DNA from: Candidatus Altimarinota bacterium
Lineage (GTDB): Bacteria; Patescibacteriota; Gracilibacteria; BD1-5; UBA6164
Assembly: GCA_026988025.1 (NCBI GenBank)
Contig: JALSMB010000008.1
Coordinates: 1,335-65,334 of the forward strand
Direction: 5' to 3'
Length of the DNA: 64,000 nucleotides
Below the pieces are notes generated by a model. That model was not told where the DNA came from and did not search any database. It worked only from the letters and a program-made list of their open reading frames with translations. A program made the translations under genes and the position numbers. Below are positions 2,130-64,000 of this stretch, piece by piece. The number at the start of each line of letters is the position of its first letter. Within the stretch, counting starts at the first letter, position 1.

Positions 2130-2930
2130 ATGCAAAATATAATAAATGACATGTTAGTTTGGCAAGCTAGTTTTACAGGACTTTTATTTGAAGTCTGAAT
2201 AATTGCTCTACTTTATATAGGTTATAAATTTTTTCCTAAAAGTGGTATTGTTATAATGTTTGAATTATTTTTCGAAAAAGCATATGAGTTTTTCGAAGAT
2301 ATACTTTGAAAAGATGAAAAGAAATGGATAAAAATGTATATTATAGGTATGTTTTTTATAATAGTTTTTTCAAATCTTTTATGAGTTTTTTTAGAATTTC
2401 TAACACCTGTGTTTTGACATTCTATGGAAGAATTTATAAAAATACCAACGGCTGATATTAACTTTAATATAGCTATGGCAGTTGTATGAGTTATAATTGT
2501 TATATTAGAACAATTTAAGGCTTTGTGATTTTGGAAGGCTATACATGAATATGTTCCAATTAAATGAAAAGATTTAATTCCTTTTGAAAGATGAAATCTT
2601 CCATTTGCTGTAGATTGGTTTGTATATATATTGGTAAAGTTTTTTGATATAGCTATATCAATGTTCTTATGAGTATTAGAAATAGTTGGTCACGCTGCAA
2701 AAGTTATTTCATTATCATTTAGGTTATTTTGAAATATGACATCAGGGGGAATATTATTAGCAATGTTGATATGAGGAGTGTCTGCTCTGACAACTTCATT
2801 GGTAGGTATAGAGTTTCCAATTATTTGACCTGTAATATTATATTTACAAGAATTACTTGTTGCTTTTATACAAGCATTAGTATTTCCATTATTGGTAGCA
2901 ATTTTTATTAAAGTTGCAAAAGTGCATTAG
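2130..2930 (+). CDS. atpB: F0F1 ATP synthase subunit a
   Basis: ATG 2130, TAG 2928-2930. Polytopic hydrophobic protein with AAKVISLSFRLFGNMTSGGILLAML (stator Arg in RLFGN; that Gly is a TGA codon). First gene of the atp operon. Confidence 0.9.
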
Positions 2931-2969: not shown

Positions 2970-4304
2970 ATGGATTTATTGAATTACGTATGACCTGGTT
3001 TAGCGGTATGACTTGCATGAGTATGAGTTGCAATTGGTCAATGAATGTTAGCTAAAAAAGCTATGGAAGTTATGGGTAAAAATAGTTCTTTAACTAGTTT
3101 TTACTTAACAATAACAATATTAGGTATAGCATTAGTAGAATCAGCAGTTATATACTGATTAGTAGTTGCTTTTCAATTAATAGGTTCACCTGATTTATCT
3201 CTTTCTTCTTCAATTTGAGCATGATTAGCTATTTGATTAGCTTGAATGTGAGCTTGAATCTGAGAATGATTTGTTATAGCTTGAGCATTGGATGCAATCG
3301 ATAGAAGACCAGAAATAAAATGAAAAATAATGAGTTTTATGGTTCTATTTGTAGCATTAGTAGAAGTAGTTGCAATATATGGTTTAATTATTGCATTTAA
3401 AATAATTGCTGATGGATGAGAATGAATTACTCATATATGAGCATGATTAGCAGTATGACTTGCGTGAGTATGAGTTGCAATTGGTCAATGAATGTTAGCT
3501 CAAAGATCTATGGAAGTTACTTCTAAGACTCCAGAACTTACTACTTTTTACTTAACAATAACTATATTAGGTATAGCATTAGTAGAATCAGCTGTTATAT
3601 ACTGATTAGTAGTTGCTTTTCAATTATTAGGAGCTGATACTGTATCATATTATGGAGCTATTTGAGCATGATTAGCTATATGATTAACTTGATTAGGTGC
3701 ATGAGTATGAGAATGACAATTAATAGCAGGTGCTTTATCTTCAATGAATAGAAATCCAGCAATTAAGGGTAAGTTAATGACATTTATGGTATTGTTTGTA
3801 GCTTTAGTTGAAGTTACTGCAATATATGGTTTAATTATTGCATTTAAAATTATAGATGGTTGAGTTACTGAACCACTATATGCAGTATGAGCATGATTGG
3901 CTATTTGATTAGCTTGATTATGAGTTGGTATTTGAAGATGATATATGTCTGAAAAATCACTTGAAGTAATGGGAAAAAATCCAAAAATGATTTCATTTTT
4001 CTTAACAGTATCTATTCTTTGAGTAGCACTTATTGAATCTGCTGCAATATATGGTTTAATCGTAGCATTTCAAATATTATCTTTTACTTGACCAGTAGCA
4101 GCTGCTGTTGCGGCATGATTAGCGATTTGATTTACAGGGTTAGGTGCTTGATTAGGTGAATGATTACTTATAAAATGAGCAATGGATGCAATGAACAATG
4201 ATCCAGAAGCTAAGGGTAAGATAATGGCATTTATGGTATTATTTGTAGCTTTAATTGAAGTAGTTGCAATATATGGTTTAATTATTTCATTCCAAGTATT
4301 GTCT
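2970..4304. repeat. Intragenic tandem triplication (about 447-450 bp unit, two c hairpins per unit)
   Basis: Units 1 and 2 are near-identical over long stretches (3003-3053 vs 3450-3500; 3099-3179 vs 3546-3626). Unit 3 (about 3879-4304) is clearly homologous but diverged. Confidence 0.85.
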
Positions 4305-4484
4305 CCTGTAAAAGATGTAGTTGAAGATATATCTGTTGTTGAAAATAATAAATGAGATATAGTTGAAGTTATTGATATTAAAGAAGAAATAAATAATAAT
4401 GAAATTGAAAAAGTTGTAGAAATTGTAACTTCTACTTGAATAACTAGTAATGAAAATACTTGAAGTATTGAACAAACTAAATAA
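2970..4484 (+). CDS. atpE: F0 subunit c, six c-type hairpins fused in one 504-aa polypeptide plus an acidic C-terminal tail
   Basis: ATG 2970, TAA 4482-4484, with no TAA or TAG in between. There are six repeats of a GxGxGxGxG helix-1 motif and an L(V/I)E(S/V)xAIYGL helix-2 motif, with carboxylates E57, E132, E206, E281, E356 and E430. Lies between atpB and atpF. Confidence 0.85.
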
Positions 4485-4505: not shown

Positions 4506-4979
4506 ATGGATGATTTAAATGTAGCTGTTATATTGGCTCAATTTATAAATTTCTGAATAGTCTTCTTCATTTTTTATTACTTTTTAGGTAAAACAATTGT
4601 TAAAACAATTGAAGAAAGAAGATCACAAATAGAAAACTTAGATAATTCTGAAGATGTTGTTAGAGAAAAACTTGAAGCAGCACAAGAAGAAGCTAAGGAA
4701 ATAATTAATGAGGCTAGAAAAAATGCTTCAGATATGCAAAAAAATGCTGATGAATTATCTAAAAGAGATACGGCAGCTAAATTAAAAATTGCTGAAGAAA
4801 AAGCAGAATGAATTATGAATTCAGCAAAAAGAGATATTGAAAAAGAAAGATTAAGTATGATTGAATCAATGAAGAAAAAAGTTCTTGATTTATCATTAAA
4901 AATCAATTCTAAAGTTTTTGATAATAAAGATAATAATAAAGAATTTATATCTAAAGAAGTTAATTCTATAAAACTATAA
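4506..4979 (+). CDS. atpF: F0 ATP synthase subunit b
   Basis: N-terminal TM helix (VAVILAQFINFGIVFFIFYYFLG) followed by a long charged coiled coil (EERRSQIENL...EEAKEIINEARKNA...). Operon position after atpE. Confidence 0.85.
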
Positions 4980-4982
4980 AAT

Positions 4983-5330
4983 ATGCAAAATCTAGAATGA
5001 TTAGATAAAGCTGAGTTAGAGGAACTTTTAAAAGATTTAAAAGTTTATAATGACTTAATTAAAAAAGTTTGAAAAAGATGAAAAGATATTTTCAATAATA
5101 AATTTAATTGAATTAATCAATATTCAGTTGAATATTACGGAGATATGGATGAATCTTATATTCTATCAGAAGCTAAGAAAATTTATAAAAAAATGTTTAA
5201 TATTGATGTTGCTGACGTTGATATTAAATTAATAAAGAATGAAAAAATAAAATGAGGAATGAAAATTTATCTAAATGATAATTTAGTTGATATGAGTTTC
5301 TTAAAATTTTACAATATGTTGAATAAATAA
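4983..5330 (+). CDS. atpH: F1 ATP synthase subunit delta (OSCP), unusually short at 115 aa
   Basis: Sits between atpF and atpA. C-terminal block KIKGGMKIYLNDNLVDMSF matches the conserved delta C-terminus (GG..i..gd.v.D.S). Confidence 0.65.
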
Positions 5331-5359
5331 TTTAATTTTATTATTAATAACTAATAATT

Positions 5360-6865
5360 ATGTCTAACGATTTACTTAATAATATCATAAGTGAAGTTGA
5401 AAAAAAATTAGACTCGACTTCTGTTAATCCAGAAATCGAAAATGTCTGAGAAGTTTTCTATTTATGAGATGGTGTTGCAAAAGTTTCTGGTTTAAGAAAT
5501 GTTGCTTACAATGAATTAGTTGAATTTGAAAGCGGTGCAGTTTGAGTTGCTCTTAACTTAGAAGAACATTATGTATGAGTAGTTATACTTTCAGGATTTT
5601 TATCTATTAAAGAAGGTGAAAAAGCTAAAGCTACTGCTAAAACATTAGAAGTTCCAGTTTGAAAAGGTCTTGTTGGTAGAGTAGTTGATGCACTTGGTAA
5701 TCCAATTGATGGATTAGGTGAAATGAAATCTACTGAAAAATACCCAATTGAAAGAGTAGCTACTGGTGTAATGGATAGAAAATCTGTACATGAACCAATG
5801 GAGACAGGGCTTAAAGCAATTGATGCACTTGTACCAGTTGGTAGAGGACAAAGAGAGCTTATTATCGGTGATAGGCAAACAGGTAAAACTCAAGTAGCTA
5901 TTGATGCAATTTTAAATCAAAAAGGTAACGGTGTAACTTGTGTTTATGTTGCTATTGGTCAAAAAGAAGCAAAAGTTGCTAGAGTAGTTGAAGAATTAAG
6001 AGCTAGAGGAGCAATGGATTATACTATTGTTGTTGTTGCTTGAGCTTCTGATCCAGCTTCAATGCAATATTTAGCTCCATATGCAGGTTGTGCGATGGCT
6101 GAATACTTTATGTTTAATAAAGGACATTCTTTAATTATATATGATGATTTAACTAAACAAGCAAATGCTTATAGAGAGATGTCATTGTTATTAAGAAGAC
6201 CACCAGGTAGAGAAGCTTACCCATGAGATGTTTTCTATCTTCACTCTAGATTATTAGAAAGATCTTCTAAATTAAATGATGAATTAGGTAATGGTTCAAT
6301 GACTGCACTTCCAATTATTGAAACTCAAGCTTGAGATGTATCTGCATATATTCCAACAAATGTAATTTCAATTACAGATGGTCAAATATTTTTAGAATCA
6401 GATTTATTTAATTCAGGTCAAAAACCAGCAATTAATGTATGATTATCAGTTTCAAGAGTATGAGGTGCTGCACAAATTAAAGCAATGAAAAAAGTATCAG
6501 GTACTTTGAAATTAGATCTTGCTCAATATAGAGAGTTAGCTGCATTTTCACAATTTGCTTCTGATTTAGATCCAGCTACTAGAGCTCAACTTGAAAGAGG
6601 TGAAAGAATGATGGAATTATTAAAACAAGGTGTATTTGAACCAGTTTCTGTTGCAAAACAAACTTGTGTAATGTATGCTTGAGGTAAAGGTTTCTTTGAT
6701 AAAATTGAAGTTTCTAAAATTAAAAAAGCTGAATCAGATTTATATTTAAGTCTTGATGAAGAAAAAACAATTATTGAAAGTATATCTAAAGATGGTAAAA
6801 TGTCTGAAGATGCTGAAAATAAATTAAAAGATGTTATAGCTAAAGTAGTTGAACTTAATAAATAA
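5360..6865 (+). CDS. atpA: F1 ATP synthase subunit alpha
   Basis: [14 protein letters not shown]-loop, [21 protein letters not shown] (Gly = TGA 6224-6226) and [24 protein letters not shown]. Confidence 0.97.
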
Positions 6866-6873
6866 TTTTTATC

Positions 6874-7779
6874 ATGGCAAATTGAAAAGAAATCAAAAGA
6901 AGAATCTGATCAATTAAAAATACAGCAAAGATAACTAAAGCTATGGAGCTTATTTCAACTGTAAAGATGAAAAAAGCTCAAGATTTAGCTCTTGAAAAGA
7001 AAGAATATATTACTTGAATACTTAAAGTAGTTGAAAATCTAAATGATAGTCTTTCTGAAAATGTATTTTTTGAATGAGTGGAGAATCCTTCTAAAACACT
7101 TTGAATTATTATTACTTCAAATAAATGATTATGTTGAGGTTATAATATAAATGTAATGAAAAAAGTTAATGAATATATGAAGTTAAATGATGAGCAAATA
7201 GATTTTGTTTCTCTTTGAAAAAGAGGGTCACAATTTATTGCTAGAACAGGGAATAAGATTATTGCTGATTTTTCTGAAGACTTTACTGATAATATTGATT
7301 ATTCTTTTTCGAAAAATGTATCTAGATTTATTAGTGAAAAATTTTCTACTGAAGGATATGATAAAGTTGTTATTTTTTATAATTATTATAAAAATACAAT
7401 TACTCAAATTCCTGTAGCTAGACAATTTTTACCTTTAACTGATAGAGGAATAGAAAAATATTTTGAAGCAATACTTTGAGATGAGTATAAAAAATCTGAA
7501 AATATTAAATCTTCATATAAGTATACTGTTGAGCCAACAGTTGAAGAATTAGTAGATGAAGTTTTACCAATGTTAATAGATTCAATGTTTTATGATATTT
7601 TGATTGAATCAAAAGCGTCAGAGCATAGTTCTAGAATGATTGCAATGAAGAATGCTAAAGATAATGCAAATAAATTTGCATCTAAATTACAACTTCAATA
7701 CAACAAGGCTAGGCAAGCATCTATAACAAAAGAAATTTCTGAAATTGTAGGTTGAGTTGAATCTATGAAAGATATGTAA
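6874..7779 (+). CDS. atpG: F1 ATP synthase subunit gamma
   Basis: N-terminus [36 protein letters not shown] and C-terminus [16 protein letters not shown], both canonical gamma termini. Confidence 0.93.
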
Positions 7780-7857
7780 CAATTAGAACTACAAAATATC
7801 TTTACAAATTCTAGATTTATTATAAAATAAAGAAGTTTATTTAAATAAAAATTATTT

Positions 7858-8205
7858 ATGAAAATTAAATTATATAGAATTATATTAAATATTTTATTTT
7901 ACGTATTTTACGTAATAGTAGTTTCAATTTCATTTTCTTTCATTTTTCCTACTATTCTTGTTATCTTATGACAAGATGTAATTGCTCCAAATAATCCTAT
8001 TTTTGATACTATACAAATAATAATAATAATCTTAGTTTTACTTATAAGTTTATTATTTAGAAGATTCTTTTATTTACCAATAAGAGAAAAAAATAAGATT
8101 AAAAAAGAATTAGAATTTAAAAAGTATGAAAAAAAAGATAAAAAAATAGAAGAAATAAATGATGAATTATGACTTGATATAAAAATAGGGAAAGAAATAA
8201 AATAA
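7858..8205 (+). CDS. Hypothetical small membrane protein inserted between atpG and atpD
   Basis: 115-codon ORF with two hydrophobic segments (ILNILFYVFYVIVVSISFSFIFPTILVIL; IQIIIIILVLLISLLF) and a Lys/Glu-rich tail. No family recognised. Confidence 0.5.
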
Positions 8206-8235
8206 TTAAAATTTTAAAAATTAATTTTGCAAAAA

Positions 8236-9636
<1,401 letters not shown>

Positions 9637-9650
9637 TTAATTATAAAATT

Positions 9651-10079
9651 ATGAAATTAGAAATATTATCATTTACATGAAACTTATTTAGATCTGAAAC
9701 TGTAGAAGAGGTTACTGCTATGACTAAAGTTGGTGAGATTACTATTTTAGATAATCATACTCCTTTAGTTACTGTTTTAAAACCTTCTATTATTAGTGTT
9801 ATTTATACTGATGAATCTTGAGTTAAATCTGAAAAAGATTTTGCAATAGGTTGAGGTGTTTTAGAAGTATCTGATTCTTCTATAAAGGTTTTAATTGATA
9901 TGTTAGTATCAATTGATGATGTTGATGTTGATGCTGCTGAAAAAGCTAAAAAAGATGCTTTAGCTATGATGGAAAAATTCAAAGATGCTAAGGATAAAGT
10001 TGATATGGAAAAATTCATTGAAGCTGAAGATATGCTAATGAAATCAGTTGCTAAACTTAAGTTAAGTGAGATAAAATAA
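9651..10079 (+). CDS. atpC: F1 ATP synthase subunit epsilon
   Basis: MKLEILSFTGNLFRSETVEEVTAMTKVGEITILDNHTPLVTVLKP, followed by a helical C-terminal domain. Last gene of the operon. Confidence 0.85.
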
Positions 10080-10987: not shown

Positions 10988-12469
10988 ATGTTAAATTTAG
11001 AAAAAATAAAATGATTAAATAAAAATACTGGTTTTTTTAGATTTAAACCATTTTGAAATGATTATTTAATTACTAATGATATAGCTAAACATGCTTTTTT
11101 AACTAAAAAAGAGTTTGGTGATTTTATTATGTGAAAAATAACTGAATGAGAAAAATATGAAGAATTATTAAATAGATGATTCATAAAAAATGATAAATAT
11201 AAAGCAAGCATGGCTTTGGCTTATGCTAAAAAAAATGAATTTTTATGATATGGACCTAGTCTTCATATAATTGTAACTACTTTAAGATGTAATCACAAGT
11301 GTCAATATTGTCATGCGGCTGTTGCTCCAATGTCAGCTAAAGAAATGGATATGACAGAGAAAACTGCAAAAAAAGTAGTTGATACTATTTTTTATACTTC
11401 TAATCCGAGTTTAACTATAGAATTTCAATGATGAGAAGCATTAGTTAATTGGAATGTTGTTAAATATATAGTAGAGTATGCAGAGACAAAAGCAGTTCAT
11501 TTGAAGAAAAATTTAAGTTTTGCTTTAGTTACAAATCTTACTTTGATGGATGATGAAAAACTAGATTATATTATTGATCATAATATATGATTATCGACAA
11601 GTCTTGATTGAGATGAAGAAACTCATAATTTTAATAGAACTTTTAAAGATTGAAATAGTTTCGAACAGGTGACTTATTGGATAAAAAAAATAAATAAAAG
11701 ATTTGAAGTAGAATGAATTAAGCAAAAAATATGAGCATTATTAACAGTTTCTAAAAGAACTCTATCAAAGTATAAAGAAGTTATTGATACTTATGTAGAG
11801 TTAGGACTTGATTGAATATTTTTAAGACCATTAAATCCTTATGGGTTTGCTGCTGCAGATTTAGAAAAGCTATGATATGAACCAGAAGAATTTATAGAGT
11901 TTTATAAAAAATCTATGGATTATATTATAGAACTTAATAAAAAATGAATAAAATTTAGAGAAGCTATGTCTTGAATATATTTATCTAAAATTTTAACTGA
12001 TAAAGATCCTAATTATCTTGATGAAAGAAGTCCCTGTTGAGCTTGTATTTGACAAGTAGCTTATAACTTTGATTGAAAAATATATTCATGTGATGAAGGA
12101 AGAATGCTTGGAAGAATGTGAGATGATAATTTTAAAATGTGAAAATTAGAAGAAACTTGAGAAGAAACATATAAAAAAATGATAGATTCTGAAACAACAA
12201 AAATTATGGTTCAAGCATCTACTCTTGATTGACTTCCATGATATAATGATAGTGTTTATAAACCATATATTTGAGTCTGTCCAATACATTCATATAAATC
12301 AACAGGTAATATAATTCCAAATTATTCTAAAGATGAAAAAAGAATATTAGGTCATAGTATACTTGATTATTTATTTGAAAATATTAGAATAGAAGAAAAT
12401 AAAAATATTTTTAAGGATTGGTTAGGTATGGGAGATAATTCTGTCACTAGTCAATGTGAATCAATTTAA
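10988..12469 (+). CDS. hxsB: Radical SAM/SPASM maturase, HxsB-like
   Basis: TTLRCNHKCQYCHA (CxxxCxxC), FQGGEALV, and C-terminal SPASM-type cysteines (SPCGACIGQVAYNFDGKIYSCDEGR ... IGVCPIHSY). Immediately precedes the His-Xaa-Ser repeat peptide. Confidence 0.75.
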
Positions 12470-12485
12470 TTTTTAATTTAATTAT

Positions 12486-13013
12486 ATGAGTGAAAAAAAG
12501 AAAAAACTTTTTCCAAAAATAAAGAAAAAGTTAAAGGGATTTATTGCTGATGAGAGTGGTAAGATAACAAAGAAAGATGCTCTAGGTTTGGCTGTATGAG
12601 CTATACTTTTTAGTTGAATTGAAGAAGTTAATGCTGCTGCTTGACATGCAAGTGGTAGTACTGTAACAGATTCTAGTATTTGAGCATCTTATTCTAGTGC
12701 TACACAACATTATAGTCAGACTTGATGTACAAATACTTCTCCTTGTAGTTCGGATCCAAGTATGTCAGATAGGTTGAAATGAGCTTCTGTAAATGCTTCA
12801 ACTTCATGTCAACATGCAAGTTGAATTGTTAACTGACATTATAGTTCTACACCTTCTTTAAATTCACCTACTACATATTATAAATGAGATTGAACTCATA
12901 TAAGTATGGATGCAACTCATGGTAGTCATGGTAGTCATGGTAGTCATGGTAGTCATGGTAGTCATGGTAGTCATGGTAGTCATGGTAGTCATGGTAGTGG
13001 TGGTTGGTGTTAA
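12486..13013 (+). CDS. hxsA: His-Xaa-Ser repeat protein (HxsA-like precursor), 175 aa
   Basis: Lys-rich N-terminus, one hydrophobic segment and a Ser/Thr/Cys-rich body with scattered HAS, HYS, HAS, HYS and HIS motifs. These are followed by nine HGS repeats and a terminal GGWC. Confidence 0.8.
12918..12998 (+). repeat. Perfect 9-bp tandem repeat catggtagt x9 (encodes His-Gly-Ser x9)
   Basis: Direct reading of 12918-12998. In frame with hxsA. Confidence 0.95.
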
Positions 13014-13035: not shown

Positions 13036-13734
13036 ATGAAGAAAAATATATTTATATTTATTATATTATTTTTTTTATGAATTAGTTTATATTTGAATTT
13101 TTTAGCTAAAAATAATATAGATACATGAAGTTTAGCTAAAAATAATATAGATACATGAAGTTTAGCTAAAAATAATATAGATACATGAAGTTTAGCTAAA
13201 AATAATATAGATACATGAAGTTTAGCTAAAAATAATATAGATACATGAAGTTTAGCTAAAAATAATATAGAAAGTATTATTGATGAATTTGATAAAATAA
13301 ATAATAAAAATAATTTTGATAAGTTTTTGAAAAAATATAATTGACAAAATTTACTATATACATTTTTAAGAGTTTGAAATAAAAAACTATTTTTAAAATT
13401 TCAAAAATATTCTTTTAAAAATAAAAACATATCATTAGAAAATTATGAAAATTATATGGGTAGAATCTTTGATAATTATAATTCTAAATGATATTTTAAT
13501 TGAAAATATATTAATAATTGAGAATATGATTATTTTTTAATATCTTTATTAAATAAAGATATTAAATTTAAGTTAAATTTATGTAATAAATGATTTAGTA
13601 ATGATATTGAAAGCTTAAATGCTTGTAAAAAATATTCACTATTTATGTCTTATGAAAATAATAATGATTGTAATAAAATGATGACATCTGTTGATAAAAA
13701 ATGGTGTATAGATACATTAAAATTAATAAACTAA
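13036..13734 (+). CDS. Secreted or membrane-anchored repeat protein (hypothetical)
   Basis: Signal-like N-terminus MKKNIFIFIILFFLGISLYLNF, then (LAKNNIDTGS) x5.7, then a Cys-containing C-terminal domain. Confidence 0.6.
13101..13270 (+). repeat. Perfect 30-bp tandem repeat, 5.7 copies (tttagctaaaaataatatagatacatgaag)
   Basis: Copies start at 13101, 13131, 13161, 13191 and 13221, with a partial copy at 13251. All are identical and in frame. Confidence 0.95.
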
Positions 13735-60061: not shown

Positions 60062-60196
60062 ATGGTAGGCAGTAGTACAGAAGATTAGAACTGAAATAGA
60101 AGAATTTGAGTGATATGTAAATATAGCTAAATTGCATTAAAAAGGATAATATGCTAAAATTATTATACTAAATAAATAATAATTTTAGTAAATGGA
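60062..60196 (+). repeat. Copy A of the duplicated upstream leader of the toxin cassettes
   Basis: Aligns with 62833-62967. The last 85 nt (60112-60196) are identical to 62883-62967. Confidence 0.9.
60132..60160 (+). promoter_or_regulatory. Sigma-70-type promoter candidate (TTGCAT-N17-TAAAAT)
   Basis: -35 at 60132-60137 and -10 at 60155-60160, about 30 nt upstream of ATG 60192. Conserved base for base at 62903-62931. Confidence 0.55.
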
Positions 60197-61829
60197 AGGT
60201 TTTTCACATAATTATGAATCTATAAATAATAATGAAGGAATAATAAAGCAAAATATTCCTTCTTTTAATGATGCAGAAAATAATATAAAACAAAATTATG
60301 AAAATAATTTAGAGGGAGAAGGTTCAGATGATTTAGCATTAAAGCAATATAAAGAGCTACAACAATTAAAAAAACAAAAAGAAAGTCCTGTATTACAGGA
60401 AACAAAGGAATGATTAGATAAAGAAGCAATGATAAATGAAGCAAAGACAATGCTTTATGAAAAATTATGAATAGATGAAAATCAAAATAATAATAGTAGT
60501 TTTGAAAATTTTGAAAAATGAATAGTAGATGAATTAGTTTTAAATAATTATTATTTAGCTATTCATGTTTGGGAAACTAATTGAAAAATAATACTTGATT
60601 GATTAAGTCAGTTAGCAAGTTGGGAGTGATTAAAACAAATAGCAGAAGCAATATGAGAAAGTTTTATGAGTTTATTTACTTGAAATGCTTATGAAAAATG
60701 AAAAGTAGTAGCTGAATTATGATTAATATGAACTTGAATTTGAGCATGAGTATATATTTGAAAGAAAACTGTTAAGTTATGAATGAAACAAATATCAAAA
60801 TTAAGAGTAAATAAAGAAAGTTTAGTAAATAGTCCTGATGTAAAAGAAGTAGTTTGAGAAACTAATAGCAAGGTTGCTAATATAGTTCCAAAAAGAGAAT
60901 TTGATTTCGAAAATAAATTAGCTGATAATTTGTCAGAAGAACAGTTAAAGCAATTAAAAGATTTAAAACAAAAACTTGAAGATAAAGAATTTATAAAAAA
61001 TAGATTAGATTTAAAAGAATTTGAAAAATTAAATATTGACTGACAATTAGAAAAACTTTGAATACCAAAAGAATATTATGAATTATTGAATAAAAGTTGA
61101 TTTTTACCAGAAAACTTTGATATAGTAGATAGATATAAAAAATTACAATATAGAGATGAAGTTTTCACTAATAAAAAAATAATAAACTATCAATCTATGG
61201 TAGAAGAAGCAATTAATAAATACCCAGATTTGACTGAAACAGAAGCATTATTAATTTTTGCTTCAACAGATAAGTTTTTATTTGAAAATGTTAATACTAA
61301 ATTAAGAAGTTGAGATAAATTAAATATTTGAGAAAAAAGATTAGTTGATACTTTTAATGATTGATTAGATAAACTACCTGATTTAGATTGAAAAACTTTA
61401 AGATGAGATAAATGGGCTTGATGGTTAGTTAAAAATGCTGATGATTTTAAAGGAATTCAAAATTTAGATATATTTAATGATATTGATATATCTAAATTAA
61501 AAAGATGAGATGAAATTCCTTTAAATGCTCCTACTTATGTTTCAAATAATGTAAATGATATTTTCATAATACCAGAGCATAAAAAAAATAATACATTAAT
61601 TATAATTAAATGAATGGAATGACAAGTAAAAGATATATCATCATTAGCAATGTTTCCAAGATTTGCTGAAAAATTATGATTTAGAGAAATTTGATATGAA
61701 TGAGTAGTTAAACCAAATTCACTTGTAAAAGTAGAAAATATAAAACAAAGAAAAAAGGAATTACCTGATTGAAAATGATGAAAATTTATAGGAACAATTA
61801 TTGAAGTAAGAGTAAAACAAGTTAAATAA
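60192..61829 (+). CDS. Polymorphic-toxin-like protein with a C-terminal ADP-ribosyltransferase (R-S-E class) domain
   Basis: C-terminal region TETEALLIFASTDKFLFENVNTKLRSG, TLRGD (Arg motif), APTYVSNNV (STS-like) and GYEGVVKPNSLVKV (catalytic Glu region). Central Gly-zipper LGLIGTGIGAGVYIG. Confidence 0.6.
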
Positions 61830-62832: not shown

Positions 62833-62967
62833 ATGGTCGGGTATAGTACATAAGATTAGAACTGAGGTAGAAGAATTTGATGGATATGTAAATATAGCTA
62901 AATTGCATTAAAAAGGATAATATGCTAAAATTATTATACTAAATAAATAATAATTTTAGTAAATGGA
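62833..62967 (+). repeat. Copy B of the duplicated upstream leader of the toxin cassettes
   Basis: See 60062-60196. There are 9 mismatches in the first 50 nt, followed by 85 identical nt. Confidence 0.9.
62903..62931 (+). promoter_or_regulatory. Sigma-70-type promoter candidate (TTGCAT-N17-TAAAAT), paralogous copy
   Basis: Identical to 60132-60160. Confidence 0.55.
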
Positions 62968-64000
62968 GGGACTTTCACATAATTATGAATCTATAAACAA
63001 TAATGAAGGAATAAAAGAACAAAATATTCCTTCTTTTAATGATGTGGAAAATAATATAAAACAAAATTATGAAAATAATTTATCAAAAGAAGGATCAAAT
63101 AATTTGGCATTAAAGCAGTTAAAGGAACAACAACAATTAAAAGAACAAAAAGAAAGCCCTATATTACAAGAAACAAGGGAATGATTAGATAAACAAGCTA
63201 TGATTAATGAAGCAAAAACTATGCTTTATGAAAAACTTTGAATTAATGATAATCTATGAAATAATAATTGGTGAGAAAATTTCTGAAAATGATTGGTAGA
63301 TACTTTGATTTTAGATAATTATGATTTAGCTATTCAAGTATGGGAAACAAATTGAAAAGTAATTATTGATTGAATAAAACAATTGTTTAGTTCATTGGAA
63401 AATATGAAAAAAGTAGCAGAAGCTTTGTGAGAAAGTGTTATGTGATTGTTTAGTTTAGATTGATATCAGACTTGAAAAAGTATAGCAGAGCTATGATTGA
63501 TATGAAGTTGAGTATGAGCATGAGTATATGTTTGAAAAAAGACAGTTAAATTGTGAATGAAACAAATATCAAAATTAAGAAAGTCTGCAGAGAGAGTTGT
63601 TGAGAGTTCTAAAACTAAGCAAGTAATTTGAAAAACAGTTTCAAAAGTTGATGAGATAATACCTAAAAAAGAAGTAGATATTGAGGCATTAGCTAAAAAA
63701 AGAGTTGATATAAAAGAGAAAGTTGAGTGATTGGAAAAATTATGAATTCCTGAAAGTATTTCAAGAGATATGCTAGAAAGTTGATTATTAAATGAAAAAT
63801 TTTATTGATGAGATTTATTAAAAAGATTTGATGCATTACAAAAGAAATGAATTGGTTATAATACTATGGTCGATGATGTAATAAAGCAAATTCCTGATTT
63901 AACAAGGGATGAAGCATTATTAATATTTACTTATACTGATGAACTTTTATATAGAAATTTAAATTGATATATGAGATGAATATGAGAAATTGTTAATAAA
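62963..64000 (+). CDS. Paralogous polymorphic-toxin-like protein (ART-type); 3' end lies outside the window
   Basis: The N-terminal 200 aa are roughly 80-90% identical by eye to the 60192 product. It retains LGLIGSGVGAGVYVG and DLTRDEALLIFTYTDELLYRNLNGYMRG, the start of the ART domain. Confidence 0.6.

What the first reader, a model, noticed from the sequence alone, without database searches (positions are those of the whole stretch)
3036..4262. The six hairpins carry three different ion-site chemistries, including an Arg in hairpin 5
The ion-site residues differ by hairpin:
- Hairpins 1 and 3 have Gln in helix 1 (AIGQG) and Glu-Ser...Tyr in helix 2 (LVESAVIYGL). This is the signature of Na+-binding c rings such as that of Ilyobacter tartaricus.
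- Hairpins 2, 4 and 6 have a second carboxylate in helix 1 (GIGEG, GVGEG, GLGEG) and Glu-Val in helix 2. This resembles the two-carboxylate site described for Fusobacterium nucleatum.
- Hairpin 5 keeps IESAAIY but has Arg at the helix-1 position (GIGRG, aga 3936-3938). That Arg could neutralise or inactivate the site.

A ring with a programmed alternation of site types, and possibly one dead site per six, has no counterpart I know of in F-type rotors.
Basis: partly seen in the sequence, partly recalled or inferred. Interest (0 to 1): 0.7.

Follow-up and report, generated by a model that had tools for sequence, protein, structure and literature searches.

The report
Six-hairpin ATPase rotor with arginine site
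This gene fuses six copies of the small rotor protein of an F-type ATP synthase from a bacterium that reads TGA as glycine, and one of its six ion-carrying pockets holds a conserved arginine next to the essential glutamate, which probably makes that pocket a permanent blank and changes the motor's gear ratio in a way not described before.

Summary
Under genetic code 25 (TGA = Gly), window 2970-4484 is one 504-aa atpE gene inside a complete F-type operon. It has six c-subunit hairpins, and every hairpin keeps the helix-2 Glu. The helix-1 residues Q24, E99, Q173, E248, R323 and E397 align gap-free with Gln32/Glu32 of the I. tartaricus and F. nucleatum rings.

The per-hairpin interpretation is mis-assembled. 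Ion sites lie between hairpins: residues 32 and 65 come from hairpin i, and the Ser66/Thr67/Tyr70 equivalents come from hairpin i-1. The real sites are therefore 3x E/E+Ser-Ala, 2x Q/E+Val-Val and 1x R/E+Val-Thr. None meets the published complete Na+ motif.

Across 86 genes (401 hairpins) from related genomes:
- The helix-2 Glu is invariant.
- Helix-1 Glu always pairs with Ser/Thr of the previous hairpin (272/272).
- Arg always pairs with Val/Ala (28/28).

The Arg hairpin is one conserved orthologous class, found in 4-, 6-, 8-, 10- and 12-hairpin genes of Gracilibacteria and Vampirococcus.

Best reading (inferred, not shown): Arg323 pairs with Glu356 as a tethered cation, so that site carries no ion. 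That lowers ions per turn in a probable 12-hairpin ring. I found no prior description. This is a new variant of a known kind (fused, heterogeneous rotor subunits).

The parts
2130..2930 (+). atpB, Fo subunit a (266 aa), with the stator Arg in LSFRLFGN
   Evidence: NCBIfam TIGR01131 matches at E = 1.9e-23 (83.6 bits), which is below the model's curated cut-off of 102.6. The stator Arg is invariant in 73/73 related a subunits.
2970..4484 (+). atpE, a six-hairpin fused c subunit (504 aa under code 25; 50 of its 74 Gly codons are TGA)
   Evidence: Code-25 translation. Pfam PF00137 matches six times, E = 3.5e-84. F-type c models are the top NCBIfam hits.
2985..3185 (+). Hairpin 1 (aa 6-72): Q24, E57-S58-A59...Y62. 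Loop GKNSS (type A).
3210..3410 (+). Hairpin 2 (aa 81-147): E99, E132-V133-V134...Y137. Loop RRPEIKGK (type B).
3432..3632 (+). Hairpin 3 (aa 155-221): Q173, E206-S207-A208...Y211. It is 81% aa / 85% nt identical to hairpin 1.
3657..3857 (+). Hairpin 4 (aa 230-296): E248, E281-V282-T283...Y286. It donates Val-Thr (3813-3818) to the Arg site.
   Evidence: The pairing R with previous-hairpin 'VT' holds in 88/89 database proteins. R pairs with previous-hairpin Val/Ala in 28/28 GTDB genes.
3882..4082 (+). Hairpin 5 (aa 305-371): R323 (aga 3936-3938), E356 (gaa 4035-4037)-S357-A358...Y361. This is the Arg hairpin.
   Evidence: Arg hairpins form one orthologous class: 30/30 have an Arg hairpin as nearest neighbour.
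4104..4304 (+). Hairpin 6 (aa 379-445): E397, E430-V431-V432...Y435. It donates Val-Val to the Gln site of hairpin 1 of the next copy in the ring.
   Evidence: cyclic covariation between the last and first hairpins
4305..4481 (+). Acidic C-terminal tail of 59 aa (14 D/E, 5 K/R). It is present only in the window's close relatives.
   Evidence: Close relatives are 480-497 aa, against about 447 aa for other six-hairpin forms.
4506..10079 (+). Rest of the F-type operon: b 4506-4979, short delta 4983-5330, alpha 5360-6865, gamma 6874-7779, small membrane ORF 7858-8205, beta 8227-9636, epsilon 9651-10079
   Evidence: The same order is syntenic in related loci.

Best explanation
This is the only c-subunit gene of an F-type ATPase operon in a Gracilibacteria-type genome that uses code 25. 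It encodes six fused c hairpins arranged as (type A - type B) x 3. Every hairpin keeps the essential helix-2 Glu.

Each ion site is built at the interface of two hairpins: helix-1 residue 32 and Glu65 from hairpin i, and the carbonyl, +1, +2 and Tyr residues from hairpin i-1. The assembled rotor therefore carries three site types in a fixed order per polypeptide: Q/E+VV, E/E+SA, Q/E+VV, E/E+SA, R/E+VT, E/E+SA. The first site is completed by the last hairpin of the neighbouring copy.

Shown:
- the positions of the residues;
- their conservation in relatives;
- the strict pairing rules.

Inferred:
(a) Two copies form a 12-hairpin ring.
(b) The guanidinium of Arg323 sits where the coupling cation would sit and forms a permanent ion pair with Glu356. 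That site then crosses the lipid phase already neutral and carries no ion. Its Glu remains available for the handshake with the stator Arg.
(c) This lowers the ions moved per turn (10 instead of 12, or 3.3 instead of 4 per ATP). That suits an ATP-driven pump in a non-respiring episymbiont.
(d) By the published motif rule the active sites look H+-type rather than Na+-type, but the ion cannot be settled from sequence.
For: - Code 25 and the intact ORF.
- Six ATP-synt_C domains in an F-type operon.
- Site columns align to 1yce, 3zk1 and 4bem.
- Sites are inter-subunit. Ser66 and Val63 O come 'from the adjacent c-subunit'. The Glu32 and Glu65 side chains are 2.66 A apart, and Na+ lies 2.35 A from Glu32 Oe1. 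An Arg side chain, two atoms longer, would therefore reach the cation position.
- The previous hairpin donates the Ser/Tyr half. In E. hirae NtpK, Gln110 and Glu139 (hairpin 2) pair with Leu61, Thr64 and Tyr68 (hairpin 1). The ProAD multi-hairpin rule says the same.
- Covariation, database proteins: E->S/T 389/389 and R->V/A 89/89, mutual information 0.57-0.74 bit against 0.07-0.28 for the other pairings.
- Covariation, independent code-25-translated GTDB loci: E->S/T 272/272, R->V/A 28/28, 0 violations against about 60 expected and a minimum of 41 in 2000 shuffles.
- R pairs specifically with 'VT' in 88/89 cases.
- Glu is kept in 401/401 hairpins.
- The Arg hairpin is a conserved orthologous class.
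- c6R is the only c gene at the locus in the window's clade. Sole 12-hairpin genes (c12, c12R, c12RR) exist in relatives.
- A fused single-chain c10 ring works, but one E56Q hairpin abolishes ATP synthesis. This gives a rationale for keeping every Glu.
- The host group lacks a respiratory chain, and reverse ATPase operation has been proposed for it.
- The AF2 model of relative P0015 is confident (pLDDT 92) with 12 helices. The best fold match is A. woodii c1.
Against: - No coordinates were available, so the Arg323-Glu356 contact is inferred from homology, not measured.
- All Arg hairpins descend from one ancestor. The 28/28 and 89/89 Arg-Val counts are therefore not independent events and could partly reflect co-inheritance of an 'EVT-R' module.
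- No compensating change was found in subunit a.
- Ring stoichiometry is unknown. Relatives have 7-, 10- and 13-hairpin genes that do not fit 12.
- Nothing shows the enzyme is expressed, nor in which direction it runs.
- A buried Arg-Glu pair might still open at the a/c interface and behave in ways I cannot predict.
Confidence: 0.55

Rival explanations
1. Each hairpin is its own site, so hairpins 1 and 3 are complete I. tartaricus-type Na+ sites (Q...ES...Y), hairpins 2, 4 and 6 are Ser-less two-carboxylate sites, and hairpin 5 is an Arg-blocked Na+ site.
For: The motifs do occur within single hairpins as described.
Against: - Structures show that the Ser, backbone C=O and Tyr come from the neighbouring hairpin.
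- The ProAD rule for fused subunits uses the previous hairpin.
- Same-hairpin pairing has almost no mutual information (0.05-0.21 bit), whereas previous-hairpin pairing is exception-free.
- The +2 residue is Ala, so even within a hairpin the full Na+ motif is incomplete.
Confidence: 0.04
2. The Arg site is still a working transport site, or it tunes its neighbours. For example, Arg323 could swing out at the a/c interface, lower the pKa of Glu356, or shape selectivity or kinetics, so that all six sites per polypeptide carry ions.
For: - Glu is strictly retained in Arg hairpins (28/28), as expected if the site still works.
- In orthologous hairpins the position can also be I, Q, H or M. Those residues would give ordinary H+-type sites, so the hairpin as such is not dispensable.
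Against: - A protonated Glu beside a charged Arg would put a net positive charge into the lipid phase (established electrostatics of c-ring sites; inference).
- Retention of Glu is equally required just to bury the Arg.
- The specific Ser-to-Val and Thr changes in the partner hairpin point to a remodelled site, not a merely tuned one.
Confidence: 0.2
3. The Arg-Glu pair is mainly structural. It would act as a staple or register mark that fixes how the fused polypeptides pack or how many assemble, with no intended effect on coupling ratio.
For: - The Arg always lies in the penultimate hairpin of a conserved C-terminal module E-EVT | R-ESA | E-EV[VIL].
- First and last hairpins also have fixed identities (Q... 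and ...EV), which suggests assembly constraints.
Against: - Arg-free paralogs and relatives with the same hairpin numbers exist (c4, c6, c12), so the Arg is not needed for assembly.
- Position 32 faces the ion pocket, not a packing interface.
Confidence: 0.12
4. Artefact: a mis-assembled tandem repeat, a pseudogene, or a product of the wrong genetic code.
For: - Under table 11 the gene is shattered by 50 in-frame TGA codons.
- The hairpins are repeats, which can confuse assemblers.
Against: - Code 25 is proven by invariant-Gly positions in beta.
- The hairpins are only 52-85% identical at the DNA level, so they can be resolved.
- The identical architecture is found in independent assemblies, and the family has more than 280 members.
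Confidence: 0.02

Closest known systems
Acetobacterium woodii F-type c1 subunit (F/V-hybrid c ring, PDB 4bem chain J)
   Same: It is an F-type operon product with fused hairpins and a site that carries no ion. It is the best sequence match (E = 9e-16 for hairpins 1+2; 4e-17 for hairpin 5) and the best fold match. Even the loops resemble each other: GKNP in the first hairpin and RPE.K in the second.
   Different: c1 has two hairpins. Its dead site arises by losing the carboxylate (Glu to Gln). From my own knowledge, it is a minor component mixed with single-hairpin c2/c3. Here there are six hairpins, every Glu is kept, the blank site is made by adding an Arg, and the fused protein is the only c gene at the locus.
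Fusobacterium nucleatum c11 ring, two-carboxylate Na+ site (PDB 3zk1)
   Same: The three E/E sites have Glu32, Glu65, Ser66 from the neighbouring hairpin, and Tyr70. The family-wide rule 'helix-1 Glu always pairs with Ser/Thr' fits the hydrogen-bond network of that structure.
   Different: Thr67, the water ligand, is Ala here, so the published complete Na+ motif is not met. In F. nucleatum all 11 sites are identical. Here the E/E sites alternate with Q/E+Val and R/E+Val sites.
V/A-type proteolipids with several hairpins (E. hirae NtpK; archaeal K subunits with 2, 3 or 13 hairpins) and the engineered single-chain Bacillus PS3 c10
   Same: Several hairpins sit in one polypeptide. The previous hairpin supplies half of each site. 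Whole-ring or half-ring polypeptides are feasible. Relatives of the window have 12- and 13-hairpin genes.
   Different: Those natural fusions lower the ion count by dropping the carboxylate from some hairpins. This family is F-type by operon and by best models, and it never drops the Glu (401/401).
[quoted passage not shown]
   Same: Mixed site types within one fused F-type c subunit are already catalogued, with the same previous-hairpin assembly rule.
   Different: Only 1- and 2-hairpin c subunits are shown there. There is no Arg at the site and no 4- to 13-hairpin F-type genes.

Membership tests
F-type ATP synthase subunit c (Pfam PF00137; NCBIfam F0F1 subunit C equivalogs) | Helix-loop-helix hairpin with a Gly-rich helix 1 and a conserved carboxylate in the middle of helix 2 | tested here: met
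   Six PF00137 domains, E = 3.5e-84. F0F1 subunit C models are the top hits. Glu is present in all six hairpins.
F-type ATP synthase subunit c (Pfam PF00137; NCBIfam F0F1 subunit C equivalogs) | Encoded between subunits a and b of an F1Fo operon | tested here: met
   Order a-c-b-delta-alpha-gamma-(orf)-beta-epsilon in the window and in more than 40 related loci.
F-type ATP synthase subunit c (Pfam PF00137; NCBIfam F0F1 subunit C equivalogs) | A single hairpin of about 70-90 aa per polypeptide (the usual form) | tested here: not met
   504 aa with six hairpins.
Na+-binding c ring (I. tartaricus type; ProAD motif [Q/E]-Xn-E plus previous hairpin [S/T]-[S/T/Q]-x-x-Y) | All ligands present in one assembled site | tested here: not met
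   0 of 6 sites are complete. E/E sites receive S-A, Q sites receive V-V, and the R site receives V-T (rule).
Na+-binding c ring (I. tartaricus type) | Actual Na+ dependence of ATPase activity or Na+ protection from DCCD | not testable with these tools
   Needs biochemistry.
Two-carboxylate ion-coupling motif (F. nucleatum) | Glu at helix-1 position 32 together with Glu65, with Ser66 and Tyr70 from the adjacent hairpin | tested here: met
   Sites H1->H2, H3->H4 and H5->H6: E99/E132+S58/Y62, E248/E281+S207/Y211, E397/E430+S357/Y361. Pairing direction.
Two-carboxylate ion-coupling motif (F. nucleatum) | Thr67 holding the fifth ligand (water) | tested here: not met
   Ala59, Ala208 and Ala358 occupy that column.
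F/V-hybrid rotor (A. woodii c1-type) | A fused double hairpin in which one hairpin has lost the carboxylate | tested here: not met
   All six hairpins keep Glu. In c1, hairpin 2 has Gln in that column.
F/V-hybrid rotor (A. woodii c1-type) | Co-encoded single-hairpin c subunits that make up most of the ring | tested here: not met
   There is no other ATP-synt_C ORF in the 64-kb window, and none at the locus in L003 or L017. The rest of the genome was not seen.
V/A-type proteolipid (subunit K/c) | Belongs to a V/A-type operon (subunits A, B, D, I and others) | tested here: not met
   The operon is F-type. V-type K models score below their cut-offs.

The most novel reading that the evidence does not exclude
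Gracilibacteria and Absconditabacteria have turned the F-type rotor into a programmable polymer. Hairpins are fused in genes of 2 to 13 units, so each ion pocket can evolve separately. One pocket type is filled by a tethered Arg cation that keeps the Glu-stator handshake but carries no ion. This would be a third natural way to set the gear ratio, alongside changing ring size and deleting carboxylates. Genomes with two different c genes, or two a-c-b modules, may switch between rotors with different ratios.
Probability: 0.35. Interest if true: 0.85.

Novelty: new variant of a known kind. Interest (0 to 1): 0.72.

Why it matters
The ion/ATP ratio of rotary ATPases is thought to be set by ring size, or in V-type and A. 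woodii rotors by deleting the carboxylate from some hairpins. A conserved Arg inside an otherwise intact site, in an F-type rotor that never loses a Glu, would be a different solution. It bears directly on why engineered rings die when one Glu is removed.

It also matters for the physiology of the code-25 candidate phyla. These organisms lack respiration, and the role of their ATP synthase is openly debated. The only published reading of their c subunit used one mistranslated hairpin.

Practically, this family is mis-annotated almost everywhere because TGA is read as stop or Trp.

The exception-free pairing rule (helix-1 Glu with Ser/Thr of the previous hairpin; Arg with Val-Thr) is a natural covariation experiment on c-ring site chemistry. 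It can be tested by structure, MD and mutagenesis.

Tried and rejected
- Table-11 ORF calling gives only fragments, so I used my own code-25 translation. Code 4 was rejected because TGA falls on invariant Gly.
I used the correctly translated relative P0015 instead for that search and for structure prediction.
- The AF2 model is confident, but the tool returns no coordinates.
- I looked for co-adaptation in subunit a between Arg-bearing and Arg-free genomes. No discriminating column was found, and the stator Arg is invariant.
- I looked for a TGA-reading tRNA in the window and found no tRNA genes.
- Literature searches for a prior description found nothing on multi-hairpin or Arg-containing c subunits in these phyla. 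The terms covered Gracilibacteria, Absconditabacteria, CPR, c-ring, c subunit and hairpins. The A. woodii c-ring paper was not held.
- My first regex for site residues picked up a spurious 'GEG' in the H2-H3 linker (residue 151). I corrected this by hand.
- I considered mixed Na+/H+ coupling, with E/E+Ser sites for Na+ and Q/E+Val sites for H+. It is not excluded, but it is unsupported: no site has the full Na+ motif.
- I considered assembly artefact and pseudogene and rejected both.
Full report
**What is there**

The window is 21% G+C. With the standard bacterial table the region is a scatter of short ORFs. In-frame TGA codons fall exactly on invariant glycines. The F1 beta P-loop reads GLFG-TGA-A-TGA-VGKT, and the next motif reads VA-TGA-VGERTRE-TGA-ND. 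With code 25 (TGA = Gly) the whole 64 kb becomes densely coding. Code 4 (TGA = Trp) is excluded by those glycine positions.

Under code 25, 2970-4484 is one ORF of 504 aa. It lies between subunit a (2130-2930) and subunit b (4506-4979) of a complete F-type operon: a, c, b, a short delta, alpha, gamma, a small membrane ORF, beta, epsilon. Pfam finds six ATP-synt_C domains (E = 3.5e-84). The best NCBIfam models are F0F1 subunit C; V-type K models stay below their cut-offs.

**Check of the observation**

The six hairpins align with one another without gaps. The site residues are as follows:

| Hairpin | Helix 1 | Helix 2 |
|---|---|---|
| H1 | Q24 | E57-S-A...Y |
| H2 | E99 | E132-V-V...Y |
| H3 | Q173 | E206-S-A...Y |
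| H4 | E248 | E281-V-T...Y |
| H5 | R323 (aga 3936-3938) | E356-S-A...Y |
| H6 | E397 | E430-V-V...Y |

HMMER alignments to solved rings and a MAFFT alignment put Q/E/R in the column of I. tartaricus Gln32 (1yce), F. nucleatum Glu32 (3zk1) and the A. woodii Gln (4bem). They put the Glu in the Glu65 column.

Odd hairpins share 58-81% identity with one another, and even hairpins 66-76%. Odd against even is only 36-51%. The gene is therefore (A-B) x 3. Hairpins 1 and 3 are 85% identical in DNA, which is different enough to exclude a collapsed or expanded repeat.

**Why the per-hairpin reading is wrong**

[quoted passage not shown] Thr67 holds a water and Tyr70 hydrogen-bonds Glu65 (PMC3692424). 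In I. tartaricus the ligands are Gln32A and Glu65A with Ser66B, Val63B and Tyr70B. In the naturally duplicated E. hirae NtpK they are Gln110 and Glu139 (second hairpin) with Leu61, Thr64 and Tyr68 (first hairpin) (PMC2359735). In a fused subunit, then, the previous hairpin donates the Ser/Thr/Tyr half. The ProAD database uses exactly this rule for multi-hairpin subunits (PMC11738941 supplement).

I tested the rule on this family.

*Database homologs (121 proteins, 54 distinct architectures).* I paired the helix-1 residue of hairpin i with the +1 residue of hairpin i-1, closing the circle from the last hairpin to the first. This gives Glu with Ser/Thr in 389/389 cases and Arg with Val/Ala in 89/89. 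Mutual information is 0.57-0.74 bit. For the same hairpin it is 0.07-0.21 bit, and for the next hairpin 0.14-0.28 bit.

*Independent set.* This comprises 86 complete c genes (401 hairpins) that I translated with code 25 from species-representative genomes. The result is Glu with Ser/Thr in 272/272 and Arg with Val/Ala in 28/28. There are no violations, against about 60 expected (minimum 41) in 2000 within-protein shuffles.

*Circular closure.* The rare proteins whose first hairpin has Glu end with a Ser hairpin. Those starting with Gln mostly end with Val. This indicates head-to-tail packing of the polypeptides in the ring.

**The real sites**

For the window the assembled sites are:
- Q24/E57 + V431-V432 (from hairpin 6 of the neighbouring copy)
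- E99/E132 + S58-A59
- Q173/E206 + V133-V134
- E248/E281 + S207-A208
- R323/E356 + V282-T283
- E397/E430 + S357-A358

That still gives three chemistries, but not the ones proposed.
- There is no I. tartaricus-type Q/E/S/T site.
- The three E/E sites do have the Ser and are F. nucleatum-like, except that the Thr67 position is Ala.
- The Gln sites and the Arg site face Val.

By the published complete Na+ motif ([Q/E]...E plus previous hairpin [S/T]-[S/T/Q]-x-x-Y), 0 of 6 sites qualify. No Arg-bearing gene in the family has a complete site. Strict motif logic therefore predicts H+ coupling. I regard the ion as unresolved.

**The Arg is a conserved, co-evolved feature**

The homolog search returned 280 proteins with E <= 1e-10. 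All are multi-hairpin, and where they are named they come from Gracilibacteria or Vampirococcus lugosii. Most 4- and 6-hairpin forms end with the module E-EVT | R-ESA | E-EV[VIL]. Some carry it twice. The Arg pairs with 'VT' of the previous hairpin in 88 of 89 cases, and 'VT' is otherwise rare.

With the site columns masked, all 30 Arg hairpins have another Arg hairpin from a different genome as nearest neighbour. They are one orthologous class with one origin, spread by module duplication. This means the Arg-Val counts are not independent events, a caveat I keep.

The window's exact architecture (Q, E, Q, E, R, E) recurs in L003, L017, L019, P0005 and P0006. It looks like a four-hairpin Q|E-EVT|R|E-EVV gene with its first two hairpins duplicated. 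In the new copy that precedes a Gln, EVT has changed to EVV. That change is itself consistent with the pairing rule.

**Context in relatives**

The gene order is beta-propeller gene, [optional c_n], a, c_m, b, delta, alpha, gamma, small ORF, beta, epsilon.
- In the window and its clade, the Arg-bearing c6 is the only c gene at the locus. No other ATP-synt_C ORF exists in the 64 kb. The Arg-bearing protein therefore cannot be a minor additive like A. woodii c1.
- Other genomes carry an Arg-free c4, c6, c12 or c13 upstream of a, plus an Arg-bearing c4 or c6 after it.
- Several genomes have a sole 12-hairpin gene (c12, c12R, c12RR).

Known F-type rings have 8-17 subunits (PMC7594442). A 12-hairpin ring made of two copies is therefore the simplest inference for the window. 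The 7-, 10- and 13-hairpin genes in relatives show that ring size is not uniform.

**Mechanism (inferred)**

In F. nucleatum the side chains at positions 32 and 65 touch (2.66 A), and Na+ lies 2.35 A from Glu32 Oe1. An Arg at position 32 is two atoms longer than Glu or Gln, so its guanidinium should occupy roughly the cation position next to Glu356. The partner hairpin offers Val where the Na+-ligating Ser would be, and a Thr that could hydrogen-bond the guanidinium.

I therefore read the site as permanently self-neutralised. It can cross the lipid phase without picking up an ion, so it moves no ion, while its Glu stays available for the transient contact with the invariant stator Arg (73/73).

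This would explain why the family never drops a Glu (401/401). V/A-type fusions and A. woodii c1 do drop it. In an engineered single-chain Bacillus PS3 c10 ring, one E56Q hairpin abolishes ATP synthesis (PMC8809890).

With two Arg sites in 12, the ratio falls from 4.0 to 3.3 ions per ATP. That favours building a larger gradient per ATP. It fits organisms that lack a respiratory chain and may run the enzyme backwards (PMC8080830).

I put this mechanism at roughly even odds. The descriptive part (composite sites, conservation, pairing rules) I consider secure.

**Structure**

AlphaFold2 on the correctly translated relative P0015 (six hairpins, Arg in hairpin 5) gives pLDDT 91.9 and pTM 0.91, with twelve long helices in six hairpins. 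Its best PDB match is A. woodii c1, followed by V-type proteolipids and NtpK. The tool returns no coordinates, so the Arg-Glu geometry remains untested.

**Prior knowledge**

Fused, heterogeneous rotor subunits are known: V/A-type K subunits, A. woodii c1, and ProAD's 2-hairpin c subunits with one H+ and one Na+ site. I found no description of 4- to 13-hairpin F-type c genes, or of an Arg at the ion site, in any searchable paper.

The Vampirococcus genome paper aligned a single hairpin of its 10-hairpin protein, with Trp printed where TGA encodes Gly. From that one hairpin it concluded H+ dependence. Most database entries of this family are likewise code-4 mistranslations carrying 40-90 spurious Trp.

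**Verdict**

It is mis-assembled as to which residues make each site, and wrong about a Na+ signature.
- The feature is a new variant of a known kind, and of clear interest to rotary-ATPase specialists.

Noticed in passing
whole window; e.g. 8227-9636 (beta), 2970-4484: The genome uses code 25 (TGA = Gly). In the c gene 50 of 74 Gly codons are TGA, against 11 of 45 in alpha and 10 of 43 in beta. Most database homologs are mistranslated with code 4 and carry 40-90 spurious Trp. So does the hairpin printed in Supplementary Fig. 6 of the Vampirococcus paper.
   Followed up: partly
L004/L005 3106-6009; L032 5984-8977; L006, L018, L020, L021, L027, L028, L029: Relatives carry single c genes with 12 or 13 hairpins (up to about 968 aa). 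Each could encode a whole rotor ring as one polypeptide. Hairpin numbers seen across the group are 1, 2, 4, 6, 7, 8, 10, 12 and 13.
   Followed up: partly
L001, L024, L022, L004, L006, L013, L015, L031 (two c genes flanking atpB); L042, L043, L046, L048, L054, L070, L077 (a-c-b duplicated): Many relatives have a second, Arg-free c gene just upstream of subunit a. Others have two complete a-c-b modules in front of a single set of F1 genes. This suggests alternative or mixed Fo rotors.
   Followed up: partly
window 4305-4481: The c6 protein ends in a 59-aa acidic tail (14 D/E, 5 K/R) after the last helix. The tail is shared only with its closest relatives (480-497 aa, against about 447 aa elsewhere). 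By c-subunit topology it should lie on the outer face of the membrane.
   Followed up: no
window 4983-5330 and 7858-8205: The delta subunit is only 115 aa and has no Pfam hit. A 115-aa membrane ORF, also with no Pfam hit, lies between gamma and beta and is syntenic in most related operons.
   Followed up: partly
window 10155-30700: Directly downstream of the operon is a long run of radical-SAM-type genes; only the ORF at 10988-12469 was scanned, and it matches Radical_SAM + Fer4_12. The small ORF at 12486-13013 ends in (HGS)x8-GGWC. Together these look like a His-Xaa-Ser peptide-maturation cluster, and the relative L001 has an HxsD-annotated gene at the same place.
   Followed up: partly
window 13036-13734: This ORF has a tandem peptide repeat, LAKNNIDTGS, repeated several times after a signal-like N-terminus.
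   Followed up: no
window 60192-61829 and 62963-64000: Two neighbouring ORFs begin with nearly the same sequence (MEGFSHNYESINNNEGI...). They are probably a paralog pair.
   Followed up: no
L019 (WFPU01000238.1): A 2.5-kb contig carrying the same six-hairpin Arg-bearing gene is filed under a 'Sulfurimonas sp.' MAG. It is very likely mis-binned from a Gracilibacteria genome.
   Followed up: no
proteins P0126, P0129, P0132, P0152 and about 100 proteins of ~318 aa: The exhaustive search also found other, unrelated-looking multi-hairpin rotor proteins. Some have 8-13 identical-type hairpins (IEAL or QETQ sites). There is also a large four-hairpin family in which some hairpins have Gln in place of Glu. 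Their origins are unknown.
   Followed up: no
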